Shown here piece by piece: positions 2,532 to 13,668 of a stretch of 28,969 nucleotides of DNA. This DNA comes from an uncultured Pirellulaceae bacterium (GTDB lineage Bacteria > Planctomycetota > Planctomycetia > Pirellulales > Pirellulaceae): NCBI GenBank assembly GCA_964443915.1, contig CAYUFW010000069.1, forward strand, positions 1 to 28,969, read 5' to 3'. Made by a program: the position numbers and the translations under genes. Numbering within the stretch: the stretch's first letter is position 1; every line of letters begins with the position of its first letter. Under the pieces are notes generated by a model. It did no database searches. It worked only from the letters and a program-made list of their open reading frames with translations, and was not told where the DNA came from.

Positions 2532-2927
2532 GAAAACTCCTCTCGATTGAAGGACAATGGCGGCCTCGACGGTCAAGGCCGACGCCATTAGAAAGCAGCG
2601 TTGGATGTCGGGCACGGCAGGTTCTGCCGATGCGCCCTAGGTAGGATACTGCGGACCCCGTTCAGCAGTCGGGCAAAAACACCAATATAGCCATCGCCCC
2701 AGTTCTCCGAAAGCCCCGGTCGCCATCACATCCCGCGGAAGCCCCCGTCGGCCCTCCGTCCACTCCGCCGCCTTCGCCCCACCGGCGCCCGTCCGGTAGC
2801 GGGCCACGCCACGCAAGAGCGTGAGGGCAGGCAAATGCTGGCTTCTCCCGCTTGTCCGATGCGGCCGTGAACCGTATCATCGGCCTGATGATGGGCAGAC
2901 TGGCGACCCCGAATTCGGCGGGGGACA

Positions 2928-3128
2928 ATGGAAGAACGAGTGGTTCAACAACTGGTCGACAAGCTTCGGGAGGCGGAGCCTCTTTACCACCGGCTCGTGT
3001 TGCTGATCGGCCCGCCGGGAAGCGGAAAAACAGAATGCCTTGTGGAAGTCAGTCGGAGGCAACCGTTGCCTCTTATCAACGTCAGTCTGGAGCTATCCCG
3101 CTCGTTGCTGCCGCTGACGGAGCGGCAC
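2928..3128 (+). pseudogene. brxF: Truncated BrxF-like P-loop ATPase (BREX type-3 first gene); only the N-terminal 67 codons are retained
   Basis: ATG 2928 follows GGGGGA. MEERVVQQLVDKLREAEPLYHRLVLLIGPPGSGKT...PLINVSLELSRSLLPLTERH matches my recollection of the small BrxF P-loop family (Walker A plus the NxxLELSRxLL segment). Protein-like sequence ends at 3128; the rest of ORF 2928-3311 is antisense to the nuclease gene and reads as junk. Confidence 0.6.
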
Positions 3129-3784
3129 TACTTTGTGCGAAACCGACTGATATCCGTACATTCGACGATTCGACCAAGGGTGTTCGGAGTGAACACCTTG
3201 CCGCGAGTGGCCAGCAGCAACTTCTTCATGTCCTCGCGTCGGACGCCAAAGCCCCGTCCGCCGATACACGCAACGACCTGGAATCGAGGCTTTCCTCCGA
3301 CGGCTCCCTGAAGGCTGAGTTCCGCCAAGTGTTGGATTCGCGTCACCTTGTCGCGGGCCGTGCCGTCGTCCTCAGTGATTTTTGCTTCGATGACCACCTG
3401 GGGCGAGAACTCGTCCGGAACGATGAAGTCTGGCGTTTGGTCAAATCCCTGGATTCGTTCTGCCCGTTTCGTCTTGCGATAGCCAACGCCGTAGCGGTCC
3501 AGAACCGATTCGATCAGTGCCTCGAGGCCATGCCCAACCAAGTCGCTGACCGAATCCCGGTGACCGGCAAACGGACGACCGAGGAATCGTTCGTAGAGAA
3601 GCATTGCGTATGGAACGCCCATCGTTGAGATGTTCTCAACGGAGTGCAATCCCTCCAACGTGTCTGCTTTCTGTAGACGGTGAACGAGATGAGGTTCGAC
3701 GGTTGGGCAACCTTCCACGATCATTTCGCATGCGGTTTGCACCAGTGCCCGCACGCGCGGCCCCGTCACCTCCGTCACCCGCAA
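3128..3784 (-). CDS. PD-(D/E)xK restriction-endonuclease-like protein
   Basis: 218-aa ORF with E88/E92...P118-D119...E133-A-K135 (QTPDFIVPDEFSPQVVIEAKITEDDGTARDK), a classic PD-(D/E)xK arrangement. The start is uncertain (TTG 3784, GTG 3778 or ATG 3724). The stop TAG (3130-3128) abuts the brxF breakpoint. Confidence 0.7.
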   Translation of the reverse strand: MRVTEVTGPRVRALVQTACEMIVEGCPTVEPHLVHRLQKADTLEGLHSVENISTMGVPYAMLLYERFLGRPFAGHRDSVSDLVGHGLEALIESVLDRYGVGYRKTKRAERIQGFDQTPDFIVPDEFSPQVVIEAKITEDDGTARDKVTRIQHLAELSLQGAVGGKPRFQVVACIGGRGFGVRREDMKKLLLATRGKVFTPNTLGRIVECTDISRFRTK

Positions 3785-3940
3785 CGGCCTGAGTGGCTCC
3801 AGGCGGATCCTGCGATCGTGTCGACCTCCAGATTCGCGAAACCCGCCGTGGCTTTTTTCAACGCCTCGTAGCCAGCTTCAAACTATGAGGTCAAGGTCCG
3901 CACGTCAGTTCTTGATGGCGCGACCTCCCCATGCGGCTGA

Positions 3941-3981
3941 TGACTATAGTCAGTTGAGAGCGACGCCGCAATGGTCATATT
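3941..3981 (+). promoter_or_regulatory. C-box-like operator (12-bp palindrome TGACTATAGTCA) abutting a sigma70-like promoter for a probably leaderless controller gene
   Basis: The perfect palindrome at 3941-3952 contains GACT..AGTC half-sites, as in characterised C-protein operators. It is followed by TTGAGA (3954-3959), a 16-nt spacer and CATATT (3976-3981). ATG 3988 lies 6 nt after the -10 element, implying a leaderless mRNA. The half-site GTCAGTT recurs at 3904-3910 and 3949-3955. Confidence 0.5.
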
Positions 3982-3987
3982 GGCGAC

Positions 3988-4245
3988 ATGTCACGGACAC
4001 CACGAGTAACTGAACTTCGACAATCGCTGGGCAAGGAGCTGCGGAGGGCTCGGCAGAGTCGCGGTTTGAGTCAGGAGAAGCTGGCCGGACTCAGCGATTT
4101 GGATCGGACGTACATCGGCTTGCTGGAACGAGCTGAAAAATCGCCGACGGTGGATACGCTCCTACGCGTTGCCTTCGCTCTGGGCGAAACGCCTTCGGAG
4201 CTACTTGCACGTGCGGAAGCCGCGTGTGAAGGCCGTCAAAGATGA
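3988..4245 (+). CDS. XRE-family HTH protein, restriction-modification controller (C-protein)-like
   Basis: 85 aa. LSQEKLAGLSDLDRTYIGLLERAEKSPTVDTLLRVAFALG matches the typical C-protein/XRE HTH pattern (RTYIxxxERxxxxPS). The stop overlaps the next start (ATGA at 4242-4245). Confidence 0.85.
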   Translation: MSRTPRVTELRQSLGKELRRARQSRGLSQEKLAGLSDLDRTYIGLLERAEKSPTVDTLLRVAFALGETPSELLARAEAACEGRQR

Positions 4246-4844
4246 GTGATCTGCCCACCGGAAGAAACGGCTCGCGTCGGCAGTCGAGTAGCAGGAAGCC
4301 GCTGCCCGTCGAGACGCTACTGGAACTTGACGCGGCCCTCATCGAGGCATTCGGCGCAATCACTGCTGTGCGAAAGCGAAGTCTCGTTGCGGGTCTGATA
4401 CAATATCCGCCCTTGCCTTCTCCCTTCAGCGAGTCACTGGTCATCGCGGCCGCACCCATACTATTCGGTCCCGAATGGAGGGCGGCGTACGGTGGAACCG
4501 ATTGTGACGTCGTGCTAGAAACGAACTCGGGAATCCGGAGACGCGTCGAGGTCAAGGCGACGGGACGCCACGCGTTTCAAGAACTCAAGGAGAAGGACCT
4601 TCGGGCCGATTTCCTCGTCTGGGTCCGCTTCGGCCGACGCTACGAGATCGGCAGTGGCCCCATCCAACTCTGCGTGTTGGAGAACCCCGGACACTACATT
4701 CCGAGGCCCTGTCGTCTCGACACGGTCCGTTTCGAACGGATCGTTGGCGTCGCGGCCAACCAGCGACTTCTCAGCTTCAGCTCGCTGGCGGATCTGCTGT
4801 GCATGGCGCGCGACGGCGTGTTGGAGCACCCAGCTAACCGCTGA
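4242..4844 (+). CDS. PD-(D/E)xK nuclease-fold protein, translationally coupled to the controller gene (putative restriction endonuclease or toxin)
   Basis: 200 aa. E64...D87/D89 (GGTDCDVVLE)...E103-V-K105 (RRRVEVKATG). ATGA overlap with the HTH gene. Confidence 0.6.
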   Translation: MSDLPTGRNGSRRQSSSRKPLPVETLLELDAALIEAFGAITAVRKRSLVAGLIQYPPLPSPFSESLVIAAAPILFGPEWRAAYGGTDCDVVLETNSGIRRRVEVKATGRHAFQELKEKDLRADFLVWVRFGRRYEIGSGPIQLCVLENPGHYIPRPCRLDTVRFERIVGVAANQRLLSFSSLADLLCMARDGVLEHPANR

Positions 4845-5043
4845 CTCGCCTGCCGGGCCGTTCCTTGACCTGGACCGACACCAGATCGGGCCAGTGGTTG
4901 AGGTCAAGTCCGTCGACAAGAGAATCGCACAAAGTTCCCTTATGGAAAAGGGCGTGAAAGCGGTCCTCCAGTCGCTCGGGTTCCGCTTTGGACCTCACCG
5001 TGATCTTAAAAGTCAGTTCATACTTCTTTGTTCGCACTGGCAT
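4834..5043 (-). CDS. Small hypothetical protein (69 aa)
   Basis: ATG 5043 follows GGGGGA with a 6-nt spacer. The local GC is low (45% in line 4981-5040). The sequence is MPVRTKKYELTFKITVRSKAEPERLEDRFHALFHKG..., and I recognise no family. The 3' end overlaps the convergent gene 4242-4844 by 11 nt. Confidence 0.4.
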   Translation of the reverse strand: MPVRTKKYELTFKITVRSKAEPERLEDRFHALFHKGTLCDSLVDGLDLNHWPDLVSVQVKERPGRRVSG

Positions 5044-5118
5044 TGCCGTTCCCCCTGACATAATCGCTATCGTAGCCCACCGCACAAGCCGGAATCGGGT
5101 TGTCGAGACTTCGATCTG

Positions 5119-5424
5119 TCACGCCATCGGGTTGATGTCCGATCCGGTGACGGAGCAGCCCAGGCGATTGGCCTCCAGCATTGTGGTTCCACCGCCCATG
5201 AACGGATCGAGAACGCTGACGTGTGGAAAAGCGTTGTCGTGAAAGAATCGTTTGCTGACTGGCTCGTTGCCGAACTCGGCGAGCAAGAGAGCGCGAAAAA
5301 GCGTTCCCGGTCGGCGAGCGAACCACTTGTGAACTGCGACGATCGGACGGTAATTCTGCTGGATTTGCTTCTCGCGCAAAGCTATCCCCGCGACGAACGG
5401 GATCTCGAAATCGCGTTCTATCAT
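5119..5424 (-). pseudogene. N-terminal fragment of a DUF1156-type (PglXI-like) DNA methyltransferase, truncated just after motif I
   Basis: ATG 5424 follows AGGAAG. The DUF1156-like signature REKQIQQNYRPIVAVHKWFARRPGTLFRALLL is followed by SAM motif I, LDPFMGGGTTMLEANRLGCSVTGSDINPMA, and then a stop. There is no DPPY motif or target-recognition region downstream in any frame. Confidence 0.65.
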
Positions 5425-5920
5425 CTTGCTTCTTCCTGAAGTCGATTGGAGATGCCGAACGTCATTTCCGGGCAACATCGGGCAGCGCACCGCCCAAAGC
5501 GAGAATGCTCAGTGCTGGTATGGCGGCACGGACACGCCCATCGCGCTTCGCAAGTCACGCTGCATGCCCCAGTTCCGCTTCGGGCCACCCCACAGCACCA
5601 CAACCATCCGCTTTATCTCTGGAGCGGTTCGGATCGAACCGCCGATGTTTTCGTCTTCCCAGGTGGCGTAGTCAAGCCCGCACAATGGGCAACGAGCCAC
5701 TGTCTGGAGGGCGAGCACTCGCCTTCCAGCCGCATTATGTCGCACCCCAATTGGTCTTTTCCGACGGCACCCGCCCTTGCCGATTGTGGTAGCGAGACCG
5801 TCCCGGCATGAAACCAACGGCGACTTGTGTCGGAATTCGCGCCAAGCCCCTCAGATCTGGCCATCGCCTGCAAATCCGTGGGCTCGGAGCAAATCGTCTT
5901 GCCGCTGAACGCCCCAACAT

Positions 5921-5972
5921 GGTCACTGACCAAGCTTTCGGCCTCCAAGCCAGGTTGGTCACTGACCAAGCT
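5921..5972. repeat. Direct repeat of a 16-bp unit (GGTCACTGACCAAGCT) at 36-bp spacing; each copy contains the palindrome GGTCA-n-TGACC
   Basis: Read directly: copies at 5921-5936 and 5957-5972 are identical. They lie in the decayed, non-coding stretch between the two methylase fragments. Confidence 0.85.
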
Positions 5973-6036
5973 CCAGCTTGCATCGCCGCGTCTAGTGGCG
6001 TAAAGTATGGACGTACAGTGACTTGCGACGGGTGCA

Positions 6037-6393
6037 ATGGCGATTCCCCAAGCGGCGAAACCCCGTCGGAGGACTTGTATTCTCCGCGAGCGGGCGTTGT
6101 CGAAGGAATTCTGGGAGTACCTGCCGCCGGGCTACAAGCCGGCCGAAAAGGATTCCCCGCAGGCCGTCCTGCCCGGCTTTGAGGAGCGGGAAACCAAGAC
6201 GCCGCGGGGCCGGCGTCTAAGGGTCATCCGCCTGGAAGCCGTCCGCGCCGGCTTCAAGCACTGCTGGCAGAACCGCGACTACCGTACCATCATCGCCATC
6301 GCCCAACGCATCCCCGAAAACGTCCTCCAGGAAGACCCCAAGCTCCTGATGTGGTACGATCAAGCACTGACCAGAACGGGCCAAGAAAGCTGA
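6037..6393 (+). pseudogene. C-terminal remnant of a large defence-island DNA methyltransferase (pglXI-like tail)
   Basis: ...RAGFKHCWQNRDYRTIIAIAQRIPENVLQEDPKLLMWYDQALTRTGQES matches my recollection of the conserved C-terminal tail of DUF1156-type methylases. No catalytic domain lies upstream. The stop is 9 nt before the next gene, as expected for the original operon junction. Confidence 0.45.
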
Positions 6394-6402
6394 AAGCAGA
6401 CC

Positions 6403-7188
6403 ATGTTTGCCGACTGGAAGGAACATTACAGTCTGACGAAGGGCCGAACGGTCCTAGCGGGATGGGCGTTTGAATCCGTGTCGGCCTGCAGGGTGTATTT
6501 CGCCAATCGGGTAATGGCAAAGCTGCAGGAGGCCAATGCAGCCGCCATGCTGGAAGACTACTTGCGGGAAATGGCGGATACGGGATTCGACACGTCCGCC
6601 TTGATGGGCCAAGTCCAGGCACCTCCGGTGCCCAAGGACTGGGAGATCGGCGAATTGTTCGCCGCCGCGATGCTTGAGGACCGATTTGACGCGGCCTTTC
6701 CGTGGCCCACGGCGTGGGACAAACGCACGCCAAAAGCCAGCCTGCCGGGACCAGACATGCCGGGGTTTGAACGTACGAATCCACCACGATTCCTGTTCGG
6801 CGAGGTCAAGTCGTCGTCGCAACAGAAGACACCACCGGATGCGGCAACAAGCGGGGACGATTCACTCTGCAAGCAGATCGGGCGCCTTCTGACTTCTCCC
6901 GCACTCAGACAGCAGTTGGTCCAATGGCTGCTCATCAGAACTCAGGATGCACCGCGCTGGCGGCCGATACTTGATGAGGCAATCCAGCGTTATACGCAGG
7001 GGAACGCGCTGATCTGCGGCGTCCTGGTCCGGGGAAAAAGGCCGCCAACGGTGCGGGACCTATCGCCCGTGCAGGATGACGTAGCCGCCATCGCCAGCAG
7101 TTTCGACGTGCGACTGTTCGCGTTTTACCTCCCGTGTGAGATGGCGGATTGGATCAAGTTGCTTTATCCAGGGGAGTCGCCGAATTGA
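6403..7188 (+). CDS. PD-(D/E)xK-like nuclease-fold protein (HamA/Cap4-like arrangement), uncharacterised
   Basis: 261 aa. E84...P117-D118...E134-V-K136 (LPGPDMPGFERTNPPRFLFGEVKSSS). ATG 6403 is 9 nt after the methylase-tail stop. The 3' end overlaps the next start. Confidence 0.6.
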   Translation: MFADWKEHYSLTKGRTVLAGWAFESVSACRVYFANRVMAKLQEANAAAMLEDYLREMADTGFDTSALMGQVQAPPVPKDWEIGELFAAAMLEDRFDAAFPWPTAWDKRTPKASLPGPDMPGFERTNPPRFLFGEVKSSSQQKTPPDAATSGDDSLCKQIGRLLTSPALRQQLVQWLLIRTQDAPRWRPILDEAIQRYTQGNALICGVLVRGKRPPTVRDLSPVQDDVAAIASSFDVRLFAFYLPCEMADWIKLLYPGESPN

Positions 7189-8000
7189 GCGCATTTCCCT
7201 CTGATTACATCCTTGATCAGTTCGGTGGGCTGGACGCGATTCGCCAGCAAGTGGACTTGGCGCGCATCCGCGTCGCCAAGTCGGTGCTGGCACAAATCGC
7301 GGCTGGCGATCGGTCGGCTACCTGCGCAGTGTCAACTTCGGAACTCGGCAAGACCCAGCAGACACTGCAAGTCGCCGAGCTGCGGGCGCTCGACCTGCTA
7401 CTACATTGGCAGCGAGATGCTCGCTCGCAGGAAGGCCAGGAGTTCCGACGCTGCTGCTCCTTTGCCTATGACTTGCGGCGGTCACTGCCGCCTCCGGACG
7501 ATGCCGACGAGGCCTTGAAAAGCTGGCTGCTGCTTTCCTGTGCGGCCGTGCTCGGCGACCGTTCGGCCGACGTCCGGCGGTATTTCCGCGAACATCCGTG
7601 GGCGATTCCTCAGCCGGATGCTGGCCGACCGAACTGGATGCAGTTGCTGTTCTATACGACCGCTGAGGCTTTCCTGCGAGTCGTGCGAAAACAGGGCTGG
7701 GCCGATCTGGAGCACGTCGCGGCATCGGTCAGCAGCCTTCGCGAACAGCAAGGACAATTCGAGCAGGCCTATTTGCATCAGGAAAACGGTATCCGGCAAA
7801 CGGCGGCCTTGGAGCTAGTGGCGTGCTACCATTTGGCAAAGGCCGTTGAAGTCCTGGCGCTCTATGTCGGCACAGGCGAGCCCGCCCGAGCAACAGACGA
7901 AGTCGAGTTCCACGTGAGCCGTGCCGAGCGGCTGATACGGCGGGAATTGTTGAGTTGGCGTTGTTGCTCCGCTGGATGGGGGCTGCAGCACGAGCACTGA
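7185..8000 (+). CDS. Hypothetical, probably all-helical protein (271 aa), coupled to the nuclease-like gene and the helicase
   Basis: TTG 7185 lies 8 nt after GGGGAG (7171-7176) and overlaps the upstream TGA (7186-7188). Alternative starts are TTG 7149 and GTG 7251. I recognise no motif. The last ~18 codons (LLSWRCCSAGWGLQHEH) look atypical; see the frameshift finding. Confidence 0.55.
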   Translation: MSAFPSDYILDQFGGLDAIRQQVDLARIRVAKSVLAQIAAGDRSATCAVSTSELGKTQQTLQVAELRALDLLLHWQRDARSQEGQEFRRCCSFAYDLRRSLPPPDDADEALKSWLLLSCAAVLGDRSADVRRYFREHPWAIPQPDAGRPNWMQLLFYTTAEAFLRVVRKQGWADLEHVAASVSSLREQQGQFEQAYLHQENGIRQTAALELVACYHLAKAVEVLALYVGTGEPARATDEVEFHVSRAERLIRRELLSWRCCSAGWGLQHEH

Positions 8001-8044
8001 TTCGCAGCACGATCTGGCATCAACTCGGCGCCTATAACGACAAG

Positions 8045-10414
8045 ATGACTTCCTTCAAGAAGGTGCTGGCCAGCCGGGACAAAAGCCAGCCCATGTTCGA
8101 GTTGTTGCCCCCGCAACGGGACGCGATCCAGGAGTTGATGAGCGTCGGCAATCGAGCGTTGGTCGTCGAGCTGCCGACGTCCAGCGGCAAGACGCTGCTC
8201 GCGGAATTCCGCATCATCCAGACCAAGGTGAACGTCGCGGATTCTTGGATTGCCTATCTGGTTCCGACTCGGGCGTTGGTCAATCAAGTCACGGCCCGCC
8301 TGCGTCGGGACCTCGGTGGCCTCGAACCGGATCTGAAGGTGGAGTTGGCATCGCCGGCCATCGAAGTCGACGTCTTTGAAGAGGAGCTTCTTCAGGGCGC
8401 GGATACCTTTGATGTGCTGGTAACGACGCTTGAAAAACAGGACCTTCTCATACGTAGCCGGCGGATCGATCTGAAGCGCCGCCCGCTGGGGTTGGTCGTT
8501 CTGGACGAAGCTCACAACCTAGGTGACGGTGCGCGTGGATTACGCAGCGAACTGCTGCTGTCGACGGTCAACCGTGAGTCGCCGGAAACGCATTTCCTGC
8601 TGCTGACGCCGTTCGTCCCTAACGCTGAGGAGTTGGCGAAGTGGCTGGACGACGAACGCTCGAAGAGCATCCAACCTAGTCTCTCCGTGGATTGGCAGCC
8701 AAACGACCGTCTGATCGGCTTGGCCTACCTGGAGGGAAAGGGTCGGGTTTGGGGGTTAAACCTACGAGCACTGCACACGAGTCGTCCGAGCATTCACTTT
8801 GAGGGCGACGCGGTCTTGGAGTCCAGCCGGGAACGCGCGGTCCCGATCAGCACGGCAAAAAGTTCCAAGAAGAAAGTCGCCGCGGAAATCTCGCGTGTGC
8901 TTTCGATTCGCGAGTGTGCAATCGTGCTGGCCTACTCGCCAGCCGATACCTGGGACATCGCTGCGGACATTGCGGACGGGATGCCGCCGATCAGCAAACC
9001 GTCGCCTCGGCTGCAACTTGTCCGGCGCTTCGTGGAAGAGGAATACGGCGACACGTTCCCGCTGGCCCGGTTGCTCGACAAGGGCGTCGGCGTCCACCAC
9101 GCTGGCATCTCGCCGGATACGCGGTATCTGTTCGAGTGGCTGGTGGAGAACGGCGAGTTGAAAACGTTGGTGGCGACGTCGACCCTGGCCCAAGGGGTGA
9201 ACTTCCCCATTTCCAGCGTGGTGTTGGCCACGCATCAAAAACCCAAGGTGATCGGGAACAGCTACATCCGAGAATCGCTTCGACCCGACGAGTTTTGGAA
9301 CGTCGCCGGCCGCGCGGGCCGGCTCTTCCAGGATTCGCTCGGTTTGGTCGTGTTTGCGTCGACCACCACGCGCGACGAAGATGTGGAGAAATTCGTCGAT
9401 GCCAGCGTTCAACACTTGGCGTCCGCCTTGGAGGAGATGATCGCTGACACGATCTCCAAGGGATGGGAATTGGACTTGAAGCGACTGGTCAAAAGTGATG
9501 CGAAGTGGTCCAGCTTCGTGCAATTCCTCTCTCACACCTATCGCCAGATCAACGATCATTCGCGGTTCGTCGCGGACACCGAGATGCTGCTGAGGCGAAC
9601 CTACGCCTATCGGCGTCTCCTGGTGCATCAGCCGGAGGTGGCGCAGCAACTGCTGGAATCGACTCGGGTTTACGCGGAGCAGTTGAAGAGACTACCGGCA
9701 GGCGTGGCGTCGCTGGTGGACACGACAGGTTTTTCGCCGGAAACAGTGGTGCAACTCCTGACAAAGAAAGCCGAGATGCAGCTGCCTCGATCGGAGTGGA
9801 GTCCCAGTCAGCTCTTTCGAACCGGCGGCGAAGGGCTGCGAAACCTTGTCGGCAAGATGCTGGAAGTCAACGAACTCAGCATCGAAGGCCGAGGGGTCGG
9901 CGAACCCGGCAGCCTCGCGGACATCATCAGCATGTGGGTCGGCGGCAATTCGTTACGGGAAATCGCCGATACACATTTTCGGACTGAGAACGATGCGGGA
10001 AAGAGGCTCACCGACTGCTGTCGCCTGATCTTTCAGAAGGTAGCGCAGAACGCATCGTGGGGGCTCGGCGCCATTCAGAGTTTGGCCGGTGTGGATCTGA
10101 GTTCACTCCCCCGGACGGAACAGGAGGCATTTCGCACGCTGCCGTCGATGATTTACTTCGGATGTTCGACGGTCGAAGGTGTGCTGATGCGATCCCTGAA
10201 CGTACCGAGGTCCGTCAGTGTGCCGTTGGGCGACGCTTTCAGGGCAGACACTTCGTCGGATTCAAGCCCCGGCACTCGTAGGGAACGGGCAAGAAGCTGG
10301 ATCCGCGATGCTAAGCGTGCGGTCTGGGACAAAGCCGCTCGGGCGAGTCGGCTGTCGGGAAAAGATTGCCGCAACCTGTGGCAAATCCTCAACGGACGTG
10401 AGCCGGATTTCTAA
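8045..10414 (+). CDS. brxHII: SF2 DEAH-box helicase, Ski2/Hel308-like (BrxHII-like / HamB-like)
   Basis: Motif I ELPTSSGKT (about 8174-8194), motif II VLDEAHNLG (DEAH at 8504-8515), GVGVHHAGISP, LVATSTLAQGVNFP and WNVAGRAGR. I use ATG 8045 as the start, but the frame is open from 7850 and TTG 7955 is an equally possible start. Confidence 0.85.
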   Translation: MTSFKKVLASRDKSQPMFELLPPQRDAIQELMSVGNRALVVELPTSSGKTLLAEFRIIQTKVNVADSWIAYLVPTRALVNQVTARLRRDLGGLEPDLKVELASPAIEVDVFEEELLQGADTFDVLVTTLEKQDLLIRSRRIDLKRRPLGLVVLDEAHNLGDGARGLRSELLLSTVNRESPETHFLLLTPFVPNAEELAKWLDDERSKSIQPSLSVDWQPNDRLIGLAYLEGKGRVWGLNLRALHTSRPSIHFEGDAVLESSRERAVPISTAKSSKKKVAAEISRVLSIRECAIVLAYSPADTWDIAADIADGMPPISKPSPRLQLVRRFVEEEYGDTFPLARLLDKGVGVHHAGISPDTRYLFEWLVENGELKTLVATSTLAQGVNFPISSVVLATHQKPKVIGNSYIRESLRPDEFWNVAGRAGRLFQDSLGLVVFASTTTRDEDVEKFVDASVQHLASALEEMIADTISKGWELDLKRLVKSDAKWSSFVQFLSHTYRQINDHSRFVADTEMLLRRTYAYRRLLVHQPEVAQQLLESTRVYAEQLKRLPAGVASLVDTTGFSPETVVQLLTKKAEMQLPRSEWSPSQLFRTGGEGLRNLVGKMLEVNELSIEGRGVGEPGSLADIISMWVGGNSLREIADTHFRTENDAGKRLTDCCRLIFQKVAQNASWGLGAIQSLAGVDLSSLPRTEQEAFRTLPSMIYFGCSTVEGVLMRSLNVPRSVSVPLGDAFRADTSSDSSPGTRRERARSWIRDAKRAVWDKAARASRLSGKDCRNLWQILNGREPDF

Positions 10415-10439
10415 CCACCGGCAACCGCGGAGGCGGGGC

Positions 10440-12431
10440 ATGGCTGATTGGCGGGAAGCGATCCTCGGCGAGTTCACTCCCGAAGTGGCCCGCTTGACCA
10501 TCGCCTTCGATCCGGACGGTTTGCTGCTGGAGCAGAACCTGCTGGACCGCGTGCTGCAGCGCGGCTTCGAGGTGGTGCAGTGGGAGGACGATGTTCAGTT
10601 CCGGTTCGTGTACGAGTCCCGGTTCCGCGCGAGGTGGGACCGAGGTGAAGGACCGGAGATGATTGTGGACGTTCGCGGATCGGGCCAGGCGTCAACCGCA
10701 CTGCCGTACGACATCCTGTCCAAGGGGCGGACCGTCGAGTTCTCGCTGGCCGGCCTGTTTCCGCAACTGAGCTATCCCGTGGTGGCTTTGCTGGACAGGA
10801 CCGACTTCGACACGCTGTATCAGGCCGTGGTCCAATTCCGCCCGGATCCCCTGGGCGAAAACGCGACCAAAGGCTTCGTTCTCCGCCACGTGTTCGAGAT
10901 CGCACCGGAACTGATCAAGACGCCCGTGGAGTTGCTGCGCGTGCTGCTCCGCAGGCATTATCGTGCGCAGCGTATTCCGGAGTTGGTCGAACGGCGCTTG
11001 ATCGAGCTGCTGCGGACTCGGCCGGCGTTCAAGGATTGGCCTCTGGAACGGATCGTTCCCGATCGCAACGAGTTCCTGCGATTCCTGCAGGAACGCTGGC
11101 CGCACTACCTGAGTTCGTTCACGTCGGGCGTGGCGGAGGAGCCTGTGCTGGAGATCTCCGGCCCGGTCGCCTTGCCTTTCGATCATGAAGACATCCGCGT
11201 TTACATCGACAACTACTTCGTGGAGGGCCTGCTGCAGCCTGTGGAGCATGAAGCCGGGGACCGGTTGCTCGATCGCTGGGTGGCCGTGGGCCTGAGGGGG
11301 CATCGTGGCCAAGTGGACCCTCGGCGAGTCCAGCGATTGATCGAACTGACCAACGAAAGTCTGCCGGCCGAAGGCTGTCCCTTCCAGGACTGGTGCCAGT
11401 TTGCCGGCCGCTGGGGGGAATTGCAGGTGGGCCTGTATCGATTATCAGACCGTCTCCGTGGCACGCCAAAGCCTTGGGATGCGGTCAGCCAGCTACAGGC
11501 CGCACTCGACGAGGCGTTTTCGTCTTGGCTGGCCCGGCACTACGCGGCCTTGGCCAACCTGCCGCCGGTCCCGCCGGCGATGCTCCATCACGTGCCTCGT
11601 TTACTTGCCCGCCAGCTGGCGTCGTCTCCGAAAGCCAAAGTGGCCCTGGTAGTCGTGGACGGGATGTCGTGGACGCAATGGCTGGTAATCCGCGACCTGA
11701 TGAGCGAGTCGCACGAGCGATTCGACCTTCGGGAGGACGCCACCTTTGCCTGGCTGCCGACGCTGACCTCCGTATCGCGGCAGGCTCTGTTTGCCGGCTT
11801 GCCGCCCTTCTACTTCCCGGACAGCATTGACGGCACCGAGAAGGAACCGGCCCTGTGGACGAAGTTCTGGAGCGATCACGGTCTGGCGGCTCACCAAGTC
11901 GCTTACCGAAAAGGGCTTGGCAAAGGCGACGCCGACCAGGTGTTGGATCTGCTGGCCAACCCGCGAATCCGCGTCGTCGGTCTTGTCGTGGACACGCTGG
12001 ATCGCATTATGCACGGAGCCGAACTGGGAGCGCGCGGCGTACTGGGCCAGGTTGAACACTGGGCTCGTGACGGTTACCTCGGCAAGCTCTTGCGGCTGTT
12101 GCTGGTCCACGGATTCCTGCCCGTTGTAACGTCAGACCACGGCAACGTGGAGGCCAGCGGGTGCGGGCGACCCAGTGAAGGCGCGCTGGCGGAGCTGCGC
12201 GGCGAACGCGTGCGGGTGTATCCCGATCCGGCCTTACGGGCGCGTGTTTGGGAGCGTTTCCCGCAGGCCAGACAGCCCGCCCTCGTTGCGTTGCCGGATC
12301 GTTATTATCCGCTGCTCGCGCCGCTCCGCCGCGCGTTTGTGGCTGAGGGAGAGCGCATCGTTGCCCACGGCGGCGATGGCTTGGAGGAACTGATTGTGCC
12401 GTTGGTGACGGTCCGGGGGCGAAAGGGATGA
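10440..12431 (+). CDS. pglZ: PglZ-domain protein (alkaline-phosphatase superfamily; BREX phosphatase-like)
   Basis: 663 aa. ATG 10440 follows GGAGG. PglZ hallmarks are KVALVVVDGMSWTQW, PTLTSVSRQALFAG, VVDTLDRIMHG, VVTSDHGN and AHGGDGLEELIVPL. Confidence 0.85.
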   Translation: MADWREAILGEFTPEVARLTIAFDPDGLLLEQNLLDRVLQRGFEVVQWEDDVQFRFVYESRFRARWDRGEGPEMIVDVRGSGQASTALPYDILSKGRTVEFSLAGLFPQLSYPVVALLDRTDFDTLYQAVVQFRPDPLGENATKGFVLRHVFEIAPELIKTPVELLRVLLRRHYRAQRIPELVERRLIELLRTRPAFKDWPLERIVPDRNEFLRFLQERWPHYLSSFTSGVAEEPVLEISGPVALPFDHEDIRVYIDNYFVEGLLQPVEHEAGDRLLDRWVAVGLRGHRGQVDPRRVQRLIELTNESLPAEGCPFQDWCQFAGRWGELQVGLYRLSDRLRGTPKPWDAVSQLQAALDEAFSSWLARHYAALANLPPVPPAMLHHVPRLLARQLASSPKAKVALVVVDGMSWTQWLVIRDLMSESHERFDLREDATFAWLPTLTSVSRQALFAGLPPFYFPDSIDGTEKEPALWTKFWSDHGLAAHQVAYRKGLGKGDADQVLDLLANPRIRVVGLVVDTLDRIMHGAELGARGVLGQVEHWARDGYLGKLLRLLLVHGFLPVVTSDHGNVEASGCGRPSEGALAELRGERVRVYPDPALRARVWERFPQARQPALVALPDRYYPLLAPLRRAFVAEGERIVAHGGDGLEELIVPLVTVRGRKG

Positions 12432-13222
12432 GACAGCGGCATCGCCAAGTCGGCTTTAGCCAGCGAGTGCGCCTGGAATGGCTGGAGCGAACGGCCAGCC
12501 TCGTGTTGGCGGGAAATACAGAACAGGACACGATCGCCGGACTGCAGGCGTTTCTGCAGGACAAGATTTCCGTCGGCGGCTCGGCGGTGCGGAGTAACCG
12601 CGAGAAGGTCATTACGATCTTGCGGCGAGTCTGGCTGCCTGTCGACGACGAACTGGCCGGGCTCCGAGAAGCGGGGCTTGGCTTCCTGCGGGACCTGCCC
12701 CAGGAAGAACACCTTGCGGTTCACTGGGGCATGGTGATGGCGGCGTACCCGTTTTGGTCCACCGTGGCAGAGACCGTGGGCCGCCTGTTGCGACTGCAGG
12801 GTACGGTGTCTGCCGCCCAGGCCCAACGCCGAGTCCGCGAGAGCCTCGGCGAACGGGAGACCGTAGCCAGGGCCGCCCGACGCGTCATCCGTGCGTTCAT
12901 GGATTGGTGCGTGCTCTCTGAGACCGGCGCGAAAGGCGTTTATGGCCGCAGCGCTGTGCTTCAGGTCGCTTCGACCGATCTTACCGCGTGGCTGGTGAAC
13001 GCCTACCTTTGCGCTTCGTCAACCGGCAGAGCCGATCTTGACGCCGTACTGAATTCTCCAGCGTTCTTCCCCCTTCGGCTGCGGCGTTTGACCGGCCCCG
13101 ACGTAGTGTCGAAAACCCGAGGGCGCGTCGATGTCATTCGCCACGCCAACAATGAAGATCTGGCAATTCTGTCACCACCCCGCGCTAGTCTTCCACAACG
13201 GGACAGGTTCTCAGCCTCATGA
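12428..13222 (+). CDS. brxA: BrxA-like (DUF1819-like) helical protein; the last gene of the block
   Basis: 264 aa. ATGA overlap with the pglZ stop (12428-12431). It sits where brxA sits in type-3 BREX. The sequence is helical with a wHTH-like segment (ERETVARAARRVIRAFMDWCVLSETGAKGVY). The family assignment rests on position and general character only. Confidence 0.45.
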   Translation: MRQRHRQVGFSQRVRLEWLERTASLVLAGNTEQDTIAGLQAFLQDKISVGGSAVRSNREKVITILRRVWLPVDDELAGLREAGLGFLRDLPQEEHLAVHWGMVMAAYPFWSTVAETVGRLLRLQGTVSAAQAQRRVRESLGERETVARAARRVIRAFMDWCVLSETGAKGVYGRSAVLQVASTDLTAWLVNAYLCASSTGRADLDAVLNSPAFFPLRLRRLTGPDVVSKTRGRVDVIRHANNEDLAILSPPRASLPQRDRFSAS

Positions 13223-13338: not shown

Positions 13339-13668
13339 ATGAAGCCGTTTCGATTACTGAAGATCGCAGCGCCGCGGACGATCGATCCGGAGGGGAACCA
13401 GGAGTGGGCTGCGGCCCAGGACTCGCTCCGCAAGAAGTTGGACGAGTGGATCCCGGTCGTGCTGGCGGCCCAAATGGCCTGCTGGTACGACGACCGGCAA
13501 CGTGACAACTTCAACCGCGCGACGTTCAACCCGTTGCGGCTGGACGTCCAGTTGCAGAGCAAGTGGTCTGCGGGCATCCTGGAACGGTGGGTGGACGGGG
13601 TCTACACTATCACGAACACCGACCGGACGACGCTCCATGATCCTTTTCTGACGCAAGAGGCGAGATGA
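13339..13668 (+). CDS. Small hypothetical protein (109 aa)
   Basis: ATG 13339 follows a strong SD (GGGAGGTGGG). The stop overlaps the next start (ATGA at 13665-13668). Confidence 0.6.
   Translation: MKPFRLLKIAAPRTIDPEGNQEWAAAQDSLRKKLDEWIPVVLAAQMACWYDDRQRDNFNRATFNPLRLDVQLQSKWSAGILERWVDGVYTITNTDRTTLHDPFLTQEAR

What the first reader, a model, noticed from the sequence alone, without database searches (positions are those of the whole stretch)
6403..13222. Intact nuclease / unknown / Ski2-like helicase / PglZ / BrxA-like operon with no methyltransferase or BrxC: candidate methylation-independent PglZ defence module
Five same-strand genes are packed with coupling signatures:
- a 9-nt gap after the methylase tail (stop 6391-6393, ATG 6403);
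- a TTGA overlap at 7185-7188;
- a 46-nt overlap or 44-nt gap at 7955/8045;
- a 25-nt gap with GGAGG before ATG 10440;
- an ATGA overlap at 12428-12431.

The products are a PD-(D/E)xK-like protein (E84..D118..E134-x-K136), a 271-aa protein with no motif I recognise, a DEAH Ski2/Hel308-like helicase, a PglZ phosphatase-fold protein and a BrxA-like protein.

The published BREX classification gives type 3 as brxF-brxC-pglXI-brxHII-pglZ-brxA. Here the back half is intact. The window holds no intact methylase or BrxC, and two extra genes precede the helicase. Described BREX types rely on the PglX methylase for self-marking. A nuclease + helicase + PglZ + BrxA block that remains fully open-reading after losing its methylase is therefore one of two things: a very recent remnant, or a self-sufficient effector module of a kind not yet described.
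Basis: partly seen in the sequence, partly recalled or inferred. Interest (0 to 1): 0.85.

Follow-up and report, generated by a model that had tools for sequence, protein, structure and literature searches.

The report
Hachiman-like pair inside decayed BREX-3
This stretch is what is left of a type-3 BREX phage-defence operon with a separate Hachiman-type nuclease-helicase system lodged inside it, so it is an ordinary decaying defence island and not a new methylation-free PglZ system.

Summary
The block holds four genes, not five. The "271-aa unknown protein" and the helicase are one hamB-like gene, split here by a 4-bp deletion at 7924. Two 99.8-99.9% identical contigs from other samples carry it as one 1077-aa ORF.

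The nuclease and helicase match PADLOC candidate PDC-M23. By fold and profile this is a Hachiman (HamA/HamB) variant. The pair stands alone in most of 80 genomes. In several type-3 BREX loci it sits between pglXI and brxHII.

The helicase is not BrxHII, which is Snf2-type and absent here. The window keeps only the first 67-70 codons of brxF and the last ~100 of pglXI, either side of 2.95 kb of restriction-modification debris. brxC is gone.

A syntenic sister lineage and an unrelated contig also keep only 'pglXI-pglZ-brxA, each with different breakpoints. dN/dS is low for pglZ (0.15) and brxA (0.23), but also for the dead fragments (~0.28), so the losses look recent.

Verdict: a recent remnant plus an embedded, independently methylation-free Hachiman-like module. 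A PglZ-based new system is not supported.

The parts
2928..3137 (+). brxF' remnant: the first 67-70 codons of the type-3 BREX BrxF ATPase, with the P-loop GPPGSGKT kept. It lies within ORF 2928-3311.
   Evidence: PADLOC BrxF PDLC02496 matches model positions 1-70 of 158 (3.6e-19). tblastn with BrxF of L084 gives aa 1-67 at 48% identity.
3128..6081 (.). A 2.95-kb non-BREX filler replacing about 7 kb (the 3' part of brxF, brxC and the 5' part of pglXI). It contains: a 218-aa PD-(D/E)xK-like ORF (3128-3784, minus strand); an HTH_3 'control protein' gene (3988-4245, plus strand); an overlapping 200-aa ORF (4242-4844, plus strand); and the N-terminal fragment of a DUF1156-type methyltransferase (5119-5490, minus strand; motifs HKWFARRP and DPFMGGGTT).
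   Evidence: Six-frame HMM searches found no PglXI, BrxC or BrxHII signal in this stretch.
6082..6393 (+). 'pglXI remnant: the last ~100 codons of the type-3 BREX methyltransferase, lying in ORF 6037-6393.
   Evidence: PADLOC PglXI PDLC02541 matches model positions 842-918 of 919 (1e-29). tblastn with PglXI of L084 gives aa 866-942 at 57% identity. My own PglXI HMM scores 5.8e-39.
6403..7188 (+). hamA-like nuclease gene (PADLOC PDC-M23A), 261 aa, intact, with catalytic-type residues E84, D118, E134 and K136.
   Evidence: PDC-M23A 2.1e-70. The four residues are invariant in 37 homologues. The AlphaFold model has pLDDT 89, and its only significant PDB match is E. coli HamA 8vxy_A (E 1e-5, TM 0.52-0.54).
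7185..10414 (+). hamB-like Ski2-type helicase gene (PADLOC PDC-M23B), broken into two ORFs. 7185-8000 encodes the N-terminal helical, HamA-binding-type domain. 7955/8045-10414 encodes the helicase core and C-terminal part.
   Evidence: Both ORFs map to one model, PDLC04531. HamB of L084 aligns aa 1-249 to 7185-7931 and aa 248-1075 to 7922-10411 in another frame. The intact 1077-aa ORF is present in L094 and L095. PDB HamB 8vx9_B scores 6.6e-28 and is co-linear.
7920..7927 (+). Site of the 4-bp deletion that frameshifts hamB. Sister contigs read GCCGTGCCGTCCG; the window reads GCCGTGCCG.
   Evidence: Pairwise comparison with L094 and L095. The same two contigs also differ from the window at 8430 and 8439.
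10415..10439 (+). 25-nt spacer where brxHII would be. Its last 13 nt (GCGGAGGCGGGGC, the pglZ ribosome-binding site) are homologous to the sequence before pglZ in the sister lineage L096.
   Evidence: Alignment A2. blastn homology with L096 starts at window position 10427.
10440..12431 (+). pglZ, 663 aa, intact (BREX-3 type).
   Evidence: PADLOC PglZ 1.5e-255 and Pfam PglZ 6.8e-22. Sources name homologues 'BREX-3 system phosphatase PglZ'. dN/dS against L096 is 0.145.
12428..13222 (+). brxA, 264 aa, intact.
   Evidence: PADLOC BrxA PDLC02444 1.4e-89. dN/dS against L096 is 0.227.

Best explanation
The block is two things joined together.

(1) Region 6403-10414 is a Hachiman-type two-gene defence module: a HamA-like PD-(D/E)xK nuclease and a HamB-like Ski2 helicase (PADLOC candidate family PDC-M23).

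The mechanism is inferred by analogy with E. coli HamAB (Tuck et al. 2024, PMC12278908). The N-terminal helical domain of HamB holds HamA. When a free single-stranded DNA end or DNA damage reaches the helicase site, ATP-driven ratcheting licenses HamA to degrade DNA. The infection is aborted. No methylation mark is involved.

(2) The module sits in the accessory-gene slot of a type-3 BREX operon, directly after pglXI. That operon has since decayed. brxF is cut after 67-70 codons. brxC and about 865 codons of pglXI have been replaced by 2.95 kb of restriction-modification debris. brxHII has been excised up to the pglZ ribosome-binding site. pglZ and brxA survive as intact ORFs.

In this particular sequence a 4-bp deletion splits hamB and severs the HamA-binding domain from the helicase core. 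Sister contigs carry the intact gene.

Shown: the gene identities, the remnants, the frameshift, and the comparative contexts.
Inferred: the Hachiman mechanism; that pglZ-brxA alone do not restrict phage; and that the losses are recent.
For: - PADLOC assignments: PDC-M23A 2e-70, PDC-M23B up to 7e-274, HamB models down to 9e-54.
- HamA fold: the only significant PDB match of the model is 8vxy_A. HamB 8vx9_B scores 6.6e-28.
- The nuclease and helicase genes are adjacent in essentially all 80 genome loci, and only 3 of those have PglZ or a PglXI tail nearby.
- Complete loci exist. L084 is BrxF-BrxC-PglXI-HamA-HamB(1081 aa)-BrxHII-PglZ-BrxA, confirmed with PADLOC. L092, L004, L005 and L009 are similar.
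- brxF' and 'pglXI remnants lie in the window, and there is no BrxC or BrxHII signal.
- The 4-bp deletion is absent from L094 and L095.
- The syntenic sister L096 has other cargo in the same slot and different breakpoints.
- dN/dS of the remnants is about 0.28, similar to live genes.
- For type-1 BREX, restriction generally requires all components (abstract of PMC13326643).
Against: - In L094 the four genes hamA-hamB-pglZ-brxA are all intact and tightly spaced, with a 25-nt gap that has a Shine-Dalgarno sequence and an ATGA overlap.
- brxHII was removed without harming pglZ translation signals.
- pglZ and brxA show clear purifying selection.
- pglZ-brxA persist in three independently truncated loci: the window, L096 and L098.
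- None of this is explained by pure decay if the losses are older than they look.
- PDC-M23 has, as far as I could find, no experimental validation (one search found no paper).
- Pfam's HamA model does not hit the window protein itself.
Confidence: 0.8

Rival explanations
1. hamA-hamB-pglZ-brxA form a new self-sufficient, methylation-independent four-gene system. HamB has taken over the role of BrxHII, and PglZ/BrxA act together with the HamA nuclease.
For: - L094 has all four genes intact and closely coupled.
- brxHII is cleanly excised with the pglZ ribosome-binding site kept.
- A second HamAB-bearing BREX-3 locus (L088) has also lost brxHII.
- dN/dS is low for pglZ and brxA.
Against: - The arrangement is seen in one lineage only.
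- L088 still has BrxC and PglXI, plus a 38-codon brxHII remnant, so that too is a recent deletion.
- HamAB occurs without BREX genes in about 72 of 75 genome loci.
- L096 and L098 keep pglZ-brxA without HamAB.
- The dead brxF' and 'pglXI fragments show the same low dN/dS, so the selection signal predates the losses.
- hamB is broken in the window itself.
Confidence: 0.06
2. pglZ and brxA are kept because they work in trans with an intact BREX (brxC/pglX) encoded elsewhere in the same genome.
For: pglZ-brxA are retained intact with low dN/dS in two syntenic lineages that lack local brxC and pglXI. Sister contigs break inside the shared pglXI tail at about 6330-6338, which could reflect a second copy of that sequence.
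Against: There is no evidence of a second locus. The rest of the 29-kb window has no BREX gene. The search with the pglXI tail found no near-identical full-length PglXI. The contig breaks are equally well explained by co-occurring strains.
Confidence: 0.07
3. The hamB split is an assembly or sequencing artefact, and this organism carries the same intact hamAB as the sister contigs.
For: Two independent assemblies of 99.8-99.9% identical DNA have the intact 1077-aa ORF.
Against: The difference is a 4-bp deletion at a short direct repeat (GCCGT GCCGT), not a homopolymer slip. The window also differs from both sister contigs at two nearby SNPs (8430, 8439), so it is a distinct haplotype.
Confidence: 0.2

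Closest known systems
Hachiman (HamA/HamB) anti-phage system, E. coli ECOR31 HamAB (PDB 8VX9/8VXY; Tuck et al., Cell 2024, PMC12278908)
   Same: - A two-gene operon in the order nuclease then helicase.
- A ~260-aa HamA-fold protein with an ExK catalytic pair (E134/K136 here, E138/K140 in E. coli).
- A Ski2-like helicase with a ~300-aa N-terminal helical domain ahead of the RecA core, co-linear with HamB.
- No methyltransferase is needed.
   Different: - Sequence similarity of the nuclease to E. coli HamA is marginal (profile E 0.065; 13% identity in the structural alignment).
- Pfam DUF1837/HamA does not hit the window protein.
- PADLOC files the family as the separate candidate PDC-M23.
- In this sequence the helicase gene is frameshifted.
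- No functional test exists.
PADLOC phage-defence candidate PDC-M23 (models PDLC04527-04532)
   Same: Both proteins match the A and B models nearly end to end (2e-70; 0 for the intact L094 HamB-like protein).
   Different: In the window the B gene is split. The pair is embedded in BREX remnants instead of standing alone.
Type-3 BREX (brxF-brxC-pglXI-brxHII-pglZ-brxA; Goldfarb 2015; Rakesh & Krishnan 2026, PMC12839542)
   Same: pglZ and brxA are of the BREX-3 type. The brxF and pglXI fragments are in the right order and orientation. Relatives such as L084 show the complete operon with the same embedded pair.
   Different: brxC and brxHII are absent. brxF and pglXI are reduced to fragments. The helicase present is Ski2/HamB-like, not the Swi2/Snf2 RapA-like BrxHII.
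Auxiliary or 'backup' effectors embedded in BREX loci (BrxU/GmrSD, PARIS-like OLD-ABC modules, PD-(D/E)XK + SF2 helicase pairs; section 35 of PMC12839542)
   Same: An independent defence module sits inside the BREX operon between core genes. The same slot holds DUF262 + OLD-like ABC/DUF3696 cargo in L096 and L097.
   Different: Here the host BREX is no longer complete, so the embedded module is the only plausible working part.

Membership tests
Hachiman (HamAB) | HamA: a DUF1837 / PD-(D/E)xK-fold nuclease with a catalytic ExK pair | tested here: met
   Foldseek's only significant PDB hit is HamA 8vxy_A (E 1e-5, prob 1.00, TM 0.52-0.54) on a pLDDT-89 model. E84, D118, E134 and K136 are invariant in 37 homologues. 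PF08878 is precomputed for 7 family members but does not hit the window protein. The profile against the PDB HamA sequence gives only E 0.065.
Hachiman (HamAB) | HamB: a Ski2-like SF2 helicase with an N-terminal helical HamA-binding domain | tested here: met
   PADLOC HamB models score 9e-54 to 4e-59. PDB HamB 8vx9_B scores 6.6e-28, aligning residues 303-726 to 302-716. GKT and DEAH motifs are present in the translation. In the window the gene is frameshifted.
Hachiman (HamAB) | Conserved adjacent hamA-hamB gene pair that occurs on its own | tested here: met
   The two genes are adjacent in essentially all 80 genome loci. Only 3 loci have BREX genes nearby. Standalone contexts: L090 and the P0022 contig.
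Hachiman (HamAB) | Confers phage resistance; DNA-damage-triggered DNA degradation | not testable with these tools
Type-3 BREX | BrxC/PglY ATPase present | tested here: not met
   No hit in the six-frame HMM search of the whole window (best E 0.73, in the brxF remnant ORF 2892-3308).
Type-3 BREX | PglXI methyltransferase present and intact | tested here: not met
   Only the last ~100 codons remain (6082-6393).
Type-3 BREX | BrxHII Swi2/Snf2 helicase | tested here: not met
   No BrxHII signal in the window. The helicase present scores 7e-274 on PDC-M23B against 1e-10 on a BrxHI/BrxHII model. True BrxHII in L084 scores 0 on PDLC02500.
Type-3 BREX | BrxF present and intact | tested here: not met
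   Only model positions 1-70 of 158 are matched.
Type-3 BREX | PglZ and BrxA present | tested here: met
   PglZ 1.5e-255 and BrxA 1.4e-89, both full length.

The most novel reading that the evidence does not exclude
In this lineage the Hachiman-like helicase has functionally replaced BrxHII. HamA-HamB-PglZ-BrxA would then operate as one methylation-independent effector module, and this would explain three things: why pglZ-brxA stay intact and under purifying selection after brxC and pglXI are lost; why brxHII was excised cleanly; and why brxHII was lost independently in two HamAB-bearing BREX-3 loci.
Probability: 0.06. Interest if true: 0.8.

Novelty: new member of a known kind. Interest (0 to 1): 0.25.

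Why it matters
As a discovery it matters little. It is a decayed BREX-3 locus carrying a Hachiman-like module that PADLOC already models.

Its modest value lies in three points:
- It ties the unvalidated PADLOC candidate PDC-M23 to Hachiman by fold.
- It shows that the position just after pglXI in type-3 BREX is a recurrent cargo slot. HamAB sits there in six or more loci, and DUF262/OLD-like modules sit there in others.
- It documents repeated, independent truncation of BREX-3 that spares pglZ-brxA.

If that sparing reflects selection, it would point to a BREX-independent role for PglZ/BrxA. The present data do not show this.

Tried and rejected
- A metagenome-contig scan with the nuclease returned one 1.9-kb contig only and was uninformative.
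- A literature search for 'PDC-M23', and one for Hachiman together with type 3 BREX, found nothing.
- I tested whether PglZ has lost conserved residues. The 119 closest homologues form one very uniform clade, and nearly all differences are shared with the sister lineage. The test says nothing about decay.
- The first dN/dS run had two mis-specified gene pairs (the acs-like gene and the gene after the heparinase-like one). I redid it on ungapped segments.
- I considered that pglXI might be inverted, not deleted, because a methylase motif lies on the minus strand at 5119-5490. I rejected this. The PglXI HMM finds nothing there, and the fragment carries the DUF1156 signature of a different methylase.
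- I searched with the pglXI tail for an intact near-identical PglXI sibling. The top hits are short or partial ORFs. Two that I examined on long contigs are a frameshift-riddled full BREX-3 locus (L097) and an IS-truncated remnant (L098).
- A promoter/terminator scan found four promoter-like sites against 1.9 ± 1.6 in shuffles, and no more terminator-like sites than shuffles give, so it was not used.
- I considered the BrxHII-less L088 as a designed variant. I rejected this because a 38-codon brxHII remnant lies in the gap.
Full report
**1. Checking the observation**

- TGA 6391-6393, then ATG 6403;
- TTGA at 7185-7188;
- TTG 7955, TGA 7998-8000 and ATG 8045;
- TAA 10412-10414, GGAGG at 10429-10433 and ATG 10440;
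- ATGA at 12428-12431.

Profile searches confirm most identities:
- 10440-12431 is a full-length PglZ (PADLOC PDLC02558, 1.5e-255; Pfam PglZ, 6.8e-22).
- 12428-13222 is BrxA (PDLC02444, 1.4e-89).
- 8045-10414 is a DEAD/DEAH helicase.
- 6403-7188 matches the PADLOC candidate PDC-M23A (2.1e-70).

**2. The "unknown 271-aa protein" and the helicase are one broken gene**

ORF 7185-8000 matches positions 38-239 of the 1060-position PADLOC model PDC-M23B. ORF 8045-10414 matches positions 278-1059 of the same model.

The 1081-aa homologue from locus L084 aligns in two pieces. Residues 1-249 align to window 7185-7931. Residues 248-1075 align to window 7922-10411 in a different frame.

In 73 of 75 assessable genome loci the two parts form one uninterrupted ORF.

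The exact 261-aa nuclease is also encoded on two contigs from other samples. L094 is from Logan ERR14064718 and is 9201 bp. L095 is from JGI 3300028241 and is 3095 bp. They are 99.9% and 99.8% identical to the window. L094 carries the complete 1077-aa ORF. L095 carries 749 uninterrupted codons of it, through the deletion site, before the contig ends.

The window differs from both by a 4-bp deletion at 7924 (GCCGTGCCGTCCG becomes GCCGTGCCG) and by two SNPs at 8430 and 8439. The window is therefore a distinct haplotype in which the gene is frameshifted. An assembly artefact is possible but less likely.

**3. What the nuclease-helicase pair is**

The helicase hits many PADLOC HamB models (down to 9e-54). 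It hits a BrxHI/BrxHII model only at 1e-10. Against solved structures it matches Hel308, Ski2 and Brr2 helicases. It also matches E. coli HamB (8vx9_B) at 6.6e-28, aligning residues 303-726 to 302-716. Both proteins therefore have a ~300-residue N-terminal domain ahead of the RecA core.

The nuclease has no Pfam hit itself. Seven members of its family carry PF08878 (HamA/DUF1837). An AlphaFold2 model has mean pLDDT 89.3. Its only significant PDB match is E. coli HamA 8vxy_A, with E 1e-5, probability 1.00 and TM 0.52-0.54 over 258 columns.

In E. coli HamAB the catalytic mutant is E138A/K140A. The N-terminal helical bundle of HamB is what binds HamA (PMC12278908). Here the equivalent residues are E134 and K136.

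The pair is thus a divergent Hachiman-type module. The "unknown protein" is the severed HamA-binding domain of HamB.

**4. Where the pair lives elsewhere**

A scan of one genome per species found 302 relatives of the nuclease, of which 80 loci were kept. In essentially all of them the nuclease gene is followed directly by the helicase gene. Only three (L004 Desulforhabdus sp. TSK, L005 and L009) also have a PglXI tail immediately upstream and PglZ (plus BrxA in L004 and L009) downstream.

Closer relatives from metagenomes show both kinds of context.

BREX-embedded:
- L084 is a complete type-3 BREX with the pair inside: HTH, BrxF (158 aa), BrxC (1242), PglXI (943), HamA-like (261), HamB-like (1081), BrxHII (934, Snf2), PglZ (668) and BrxA (262). 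All were confirmed with PADLOC.
- L092 and L093 are similar.

Not BREX-embedded:
- L090 and the P0022 contig carry the pair alone.
- L081 has the nuclease and a truncated helicase gene next to a group II intron reverse transcriptase.

Embedded and standalone copies interleave when ranked by identity to the window protein: 59, 57, 56, 51, 48, 47, 44 and 43%. The pair therefore behaves as a mobile, self-contained module.

According to Rakesh & Krishnan (PMC12839542), BrxHII is a Swi2/Snf2 RapA-like helicase present in 77% of type-3 loci. The same paper reports that many BREX loci carry embedded auxiliary nucleases.

**5. What is left of BREX in the window**

- The first 67-70 codons of brxF are at 2928-3137 (BrxF model positions 1-70 of 158, 3.6e-19).
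- The last ~100 codons of pglXI are at 6082-6393.
- Six-frame HMM searches with PglXI, BrxC and BrxHII profiles, built from six related loci, find nothing else anywhere in the window.

Between the two fragments lie 2.95 kb of unrelated material:
- a 218-aa PD-(D/E)xK-like ORF on the minus strand (3128-3784);
- an HTH "control protein" gene (3988-4245) overlapping a 200-aa ORF (4242-4844);
- the N-terminal ~120 residues of a DUF1156-type methyltransferase on the minus strand (5119-5490; motifs HKWFARRP and DPFMGGGTT; NCBIfam NF042963, 6e-8).

No brxHII is present. The hamB stop codon and the pglZ start codon are 25 nt apart.

**6. A syntenic sister lineage**

The closest PglZ (P0101, 90% identity) lies on L096 (Logan SRR8925765, 17 kb). 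Its flanks match the window at 95% nucleotide identity by blastn (97% over the acs-like coding segment): the acs-like gene on the left and the heparinase-like gene on the right.

L096 reads as follows:
- brxF' (aa 1-126);
- 'pglXI (aa ~598-942, frameshifted, stop codon lost);
- a DUF262/GmrSD_N domain;
- an OLD-like ABC ATPase with DUF3696;
- a 310-aa gene;
- brxHII' (only aa 8-375);
- pglZ and brxA.

L096 has no hamAB, and its breakpoints differ from the window's. Homology between the two upstream of pglZ begins 13 nt before the ATG, at the Shine-Dalgarno sequence. Homology in the pglXI tail ends at 6377, just before its stop codon. The slot between pglXI and brxHII therefore carries exchangeable cargo.

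L097 has the OLD-like cargo in the same slot of a full, frameshift-riddled BREX-3 locus.

L098 shows an IS3-family transposase, then 'pglXI (aa 768-942), PglZ and BrxA, with no helicase at all.

L088 has BrxC, PglXI, HamA and HamB. A 223-nt gap holding a 38-codon BrxHII remnant follows, and then PglZ.

**7. Selection**

Nei-Gojobori estimates, window against L096:

| Segment | dN/dS | dS | Codons |
|---|---|---|---|
| pglZ | 0.145 | 0.39 | 663 |
| brxA | 0.227 | 0.14 | 264 |
| heparinase-like gene | 0.267 | 0.15 | ~873 |
| acs-like gene | 0.055 | 0.10 | 323 |
| 'pglXI fragment | 0.276 | 0.30 | 104 |
| brxF' fragment | 0.287 | 0.57 | 67 |

For both fragments the share of nonsynonymous changes is about 0.51. 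Neutrality predicts about 0.75. By my rough binomial estimate this is about 3.5 standard errors below neutral.

The dead fragments thus still look selected. The breakpoints also differ between the lineages. The simplest reading is that the operon was intact for most of the time since the two lineages split, and that it decayed independently and recently in each. The low dN/dS of pglZ and brxA therefore cannot be credited to a methylase-free life.

The higher dS of pglZ, 'pglXI and brxF' compared with the flanks suggests allelic exchange of BREX genes by recombination.

**8. How it most likely works**

The only part with a plausible autonomous function is hamA-hamB.

The mechanism is inferred by analogy with E. 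coli HamAB. HamB restrains HamA on intact DNA. Entry of a single-stranded DNA end into the helicase triggers ATP hydrolysis and conformational change, which activates HamA. General DNA degradation and abortive infection follow (PMC12278908). This mechanism needs no methylation by design.

In the window's haplotype the helicase core is uncoupled from the HamA-binding domain, so even this module is probably inactive. In L094 it should be active.

pglZ and brxA are most likely leftovers. In type-1 BREX, restriction generally requires all components (PMC13326643 abstract). PglZ is a metal-dependent nuclease acting within BREX sub-complexes (PMC12205998 abstract). Whether this holds for type 3 has not been tested.

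**9. Rivals and residual doubt**

The four-gene "new module" reading is not excluded:
- L094 keeps all four genes intact and tightly packed.
- brxHII was lost in two HamAB-bearing loci.
- pglZ-brxA survive in three independently truncated loci.

Against it:
- The arrangement is found in a single lineage.
- L096 and L098 keep pglZ-brxA without HamAB.
- HamAB is overwhelmingly BREX-free.
- The L088 brxHII remnant points to recent loss.

I give this reading about 6%.

Trans-complementation by another BREX locus cannot be tested with a 29-kb window. I give it about 7%.

**10. Verdict**

The "recent remnant" alternative is supported. The "undescribed methylation-independent PglZ system" is not supported.

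The locus is a new member of known kinds: a Hachiman-like PDC-M23 pair embedded in a decayed type-3 BREX. Interest is low to moderate (0.25).

Noticed in passing
window 3128-6081: A patch of restriction-modification debris replaces brxC. It holds a 218-aa PD-(D/E)xK-like ORF (3128-3784, minus strand; motif PDFIVPD...VVIEAK). It also holds an HTH_3 'control protein' gene (3988-4245) overlapping a 200-aa ORF with a D...EVK motif (4242-4844). The last piece is a ~120-aa N-terminal fragment of a DUF1156-type methyltransferase (5119-5490, minus strand). None has a family hit apart from the HTH gene and the methylase fragment.
   Followed up: partly
L094 and L095 ends, equivalent to window 6330-6338: Two independent assemblies of near-identical DNA both end inside the pglXI tail. 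This is about 45 nt before the point (6377) where homology with the sister lineage L096 stops. It suggests an assembly-graph branch, from co-occurring strains or from a second copy of this segment.
   Followed up: no
L084, L088, L092, L004, L005, L009, L096, L097 (slot directly after pglXI): The position between pglXI and brxHII in type-3 BREX is a recurrent cargo slot. It holds HamA/HamB-like pairs in at least six loci from different phyla. In L096 and L097 it holds an OLD-like ABC ATPase (AAA_15/AAA_21/DUF3696) module, preceded in L096 by a DUF262/GmrSD_N domain.
   Followed up: partly
window 10440-13222; L096 8496-11278; L098 10482-13243: Three independently truncated BREX-3 loci, each with a different pglXI breakpoint (aa 866, ~598 and 768), all retain an intact pglZ-brxA pair behind a pglXI tail. 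This could be deletion bias or selection.
   Followed up: partly
window vs L096: pglZ, 'pglXI and brxF' compared with the flanks: Synonymous divergence is uneven. The flanking chromosomal genes and brxA have dS 0.10-0.15. pglZ, the pglXI tail and brxF' have dS 0.30-0.57. This suggests that BREX alleles were exchanged by recombination between lineages.
   Followed up: no
L081 10783-12657: In one relative the HamB-like gene stops after 285 codons, next to a group II intron reverse transcriptase (RVT_1/GIIM). This is another way this helicase gene gets interrupted.
   Followed up: no
L098 3156-5225: The island upstream of the L098 BREX remnant carries Multi_ubiq, ThiF/DUF6791 and BubE genes (a ubiquitin-like conjugation defence set) and an IS3-family transposase abutting the pglXI fragment.
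   Followed up: no
window 13339-13668: A 109-aa ORF downstream of brxA is also called in the sister contig L094 (7014-7343). It was not searched against any family library, so its function is unknown.
   Followed up: no
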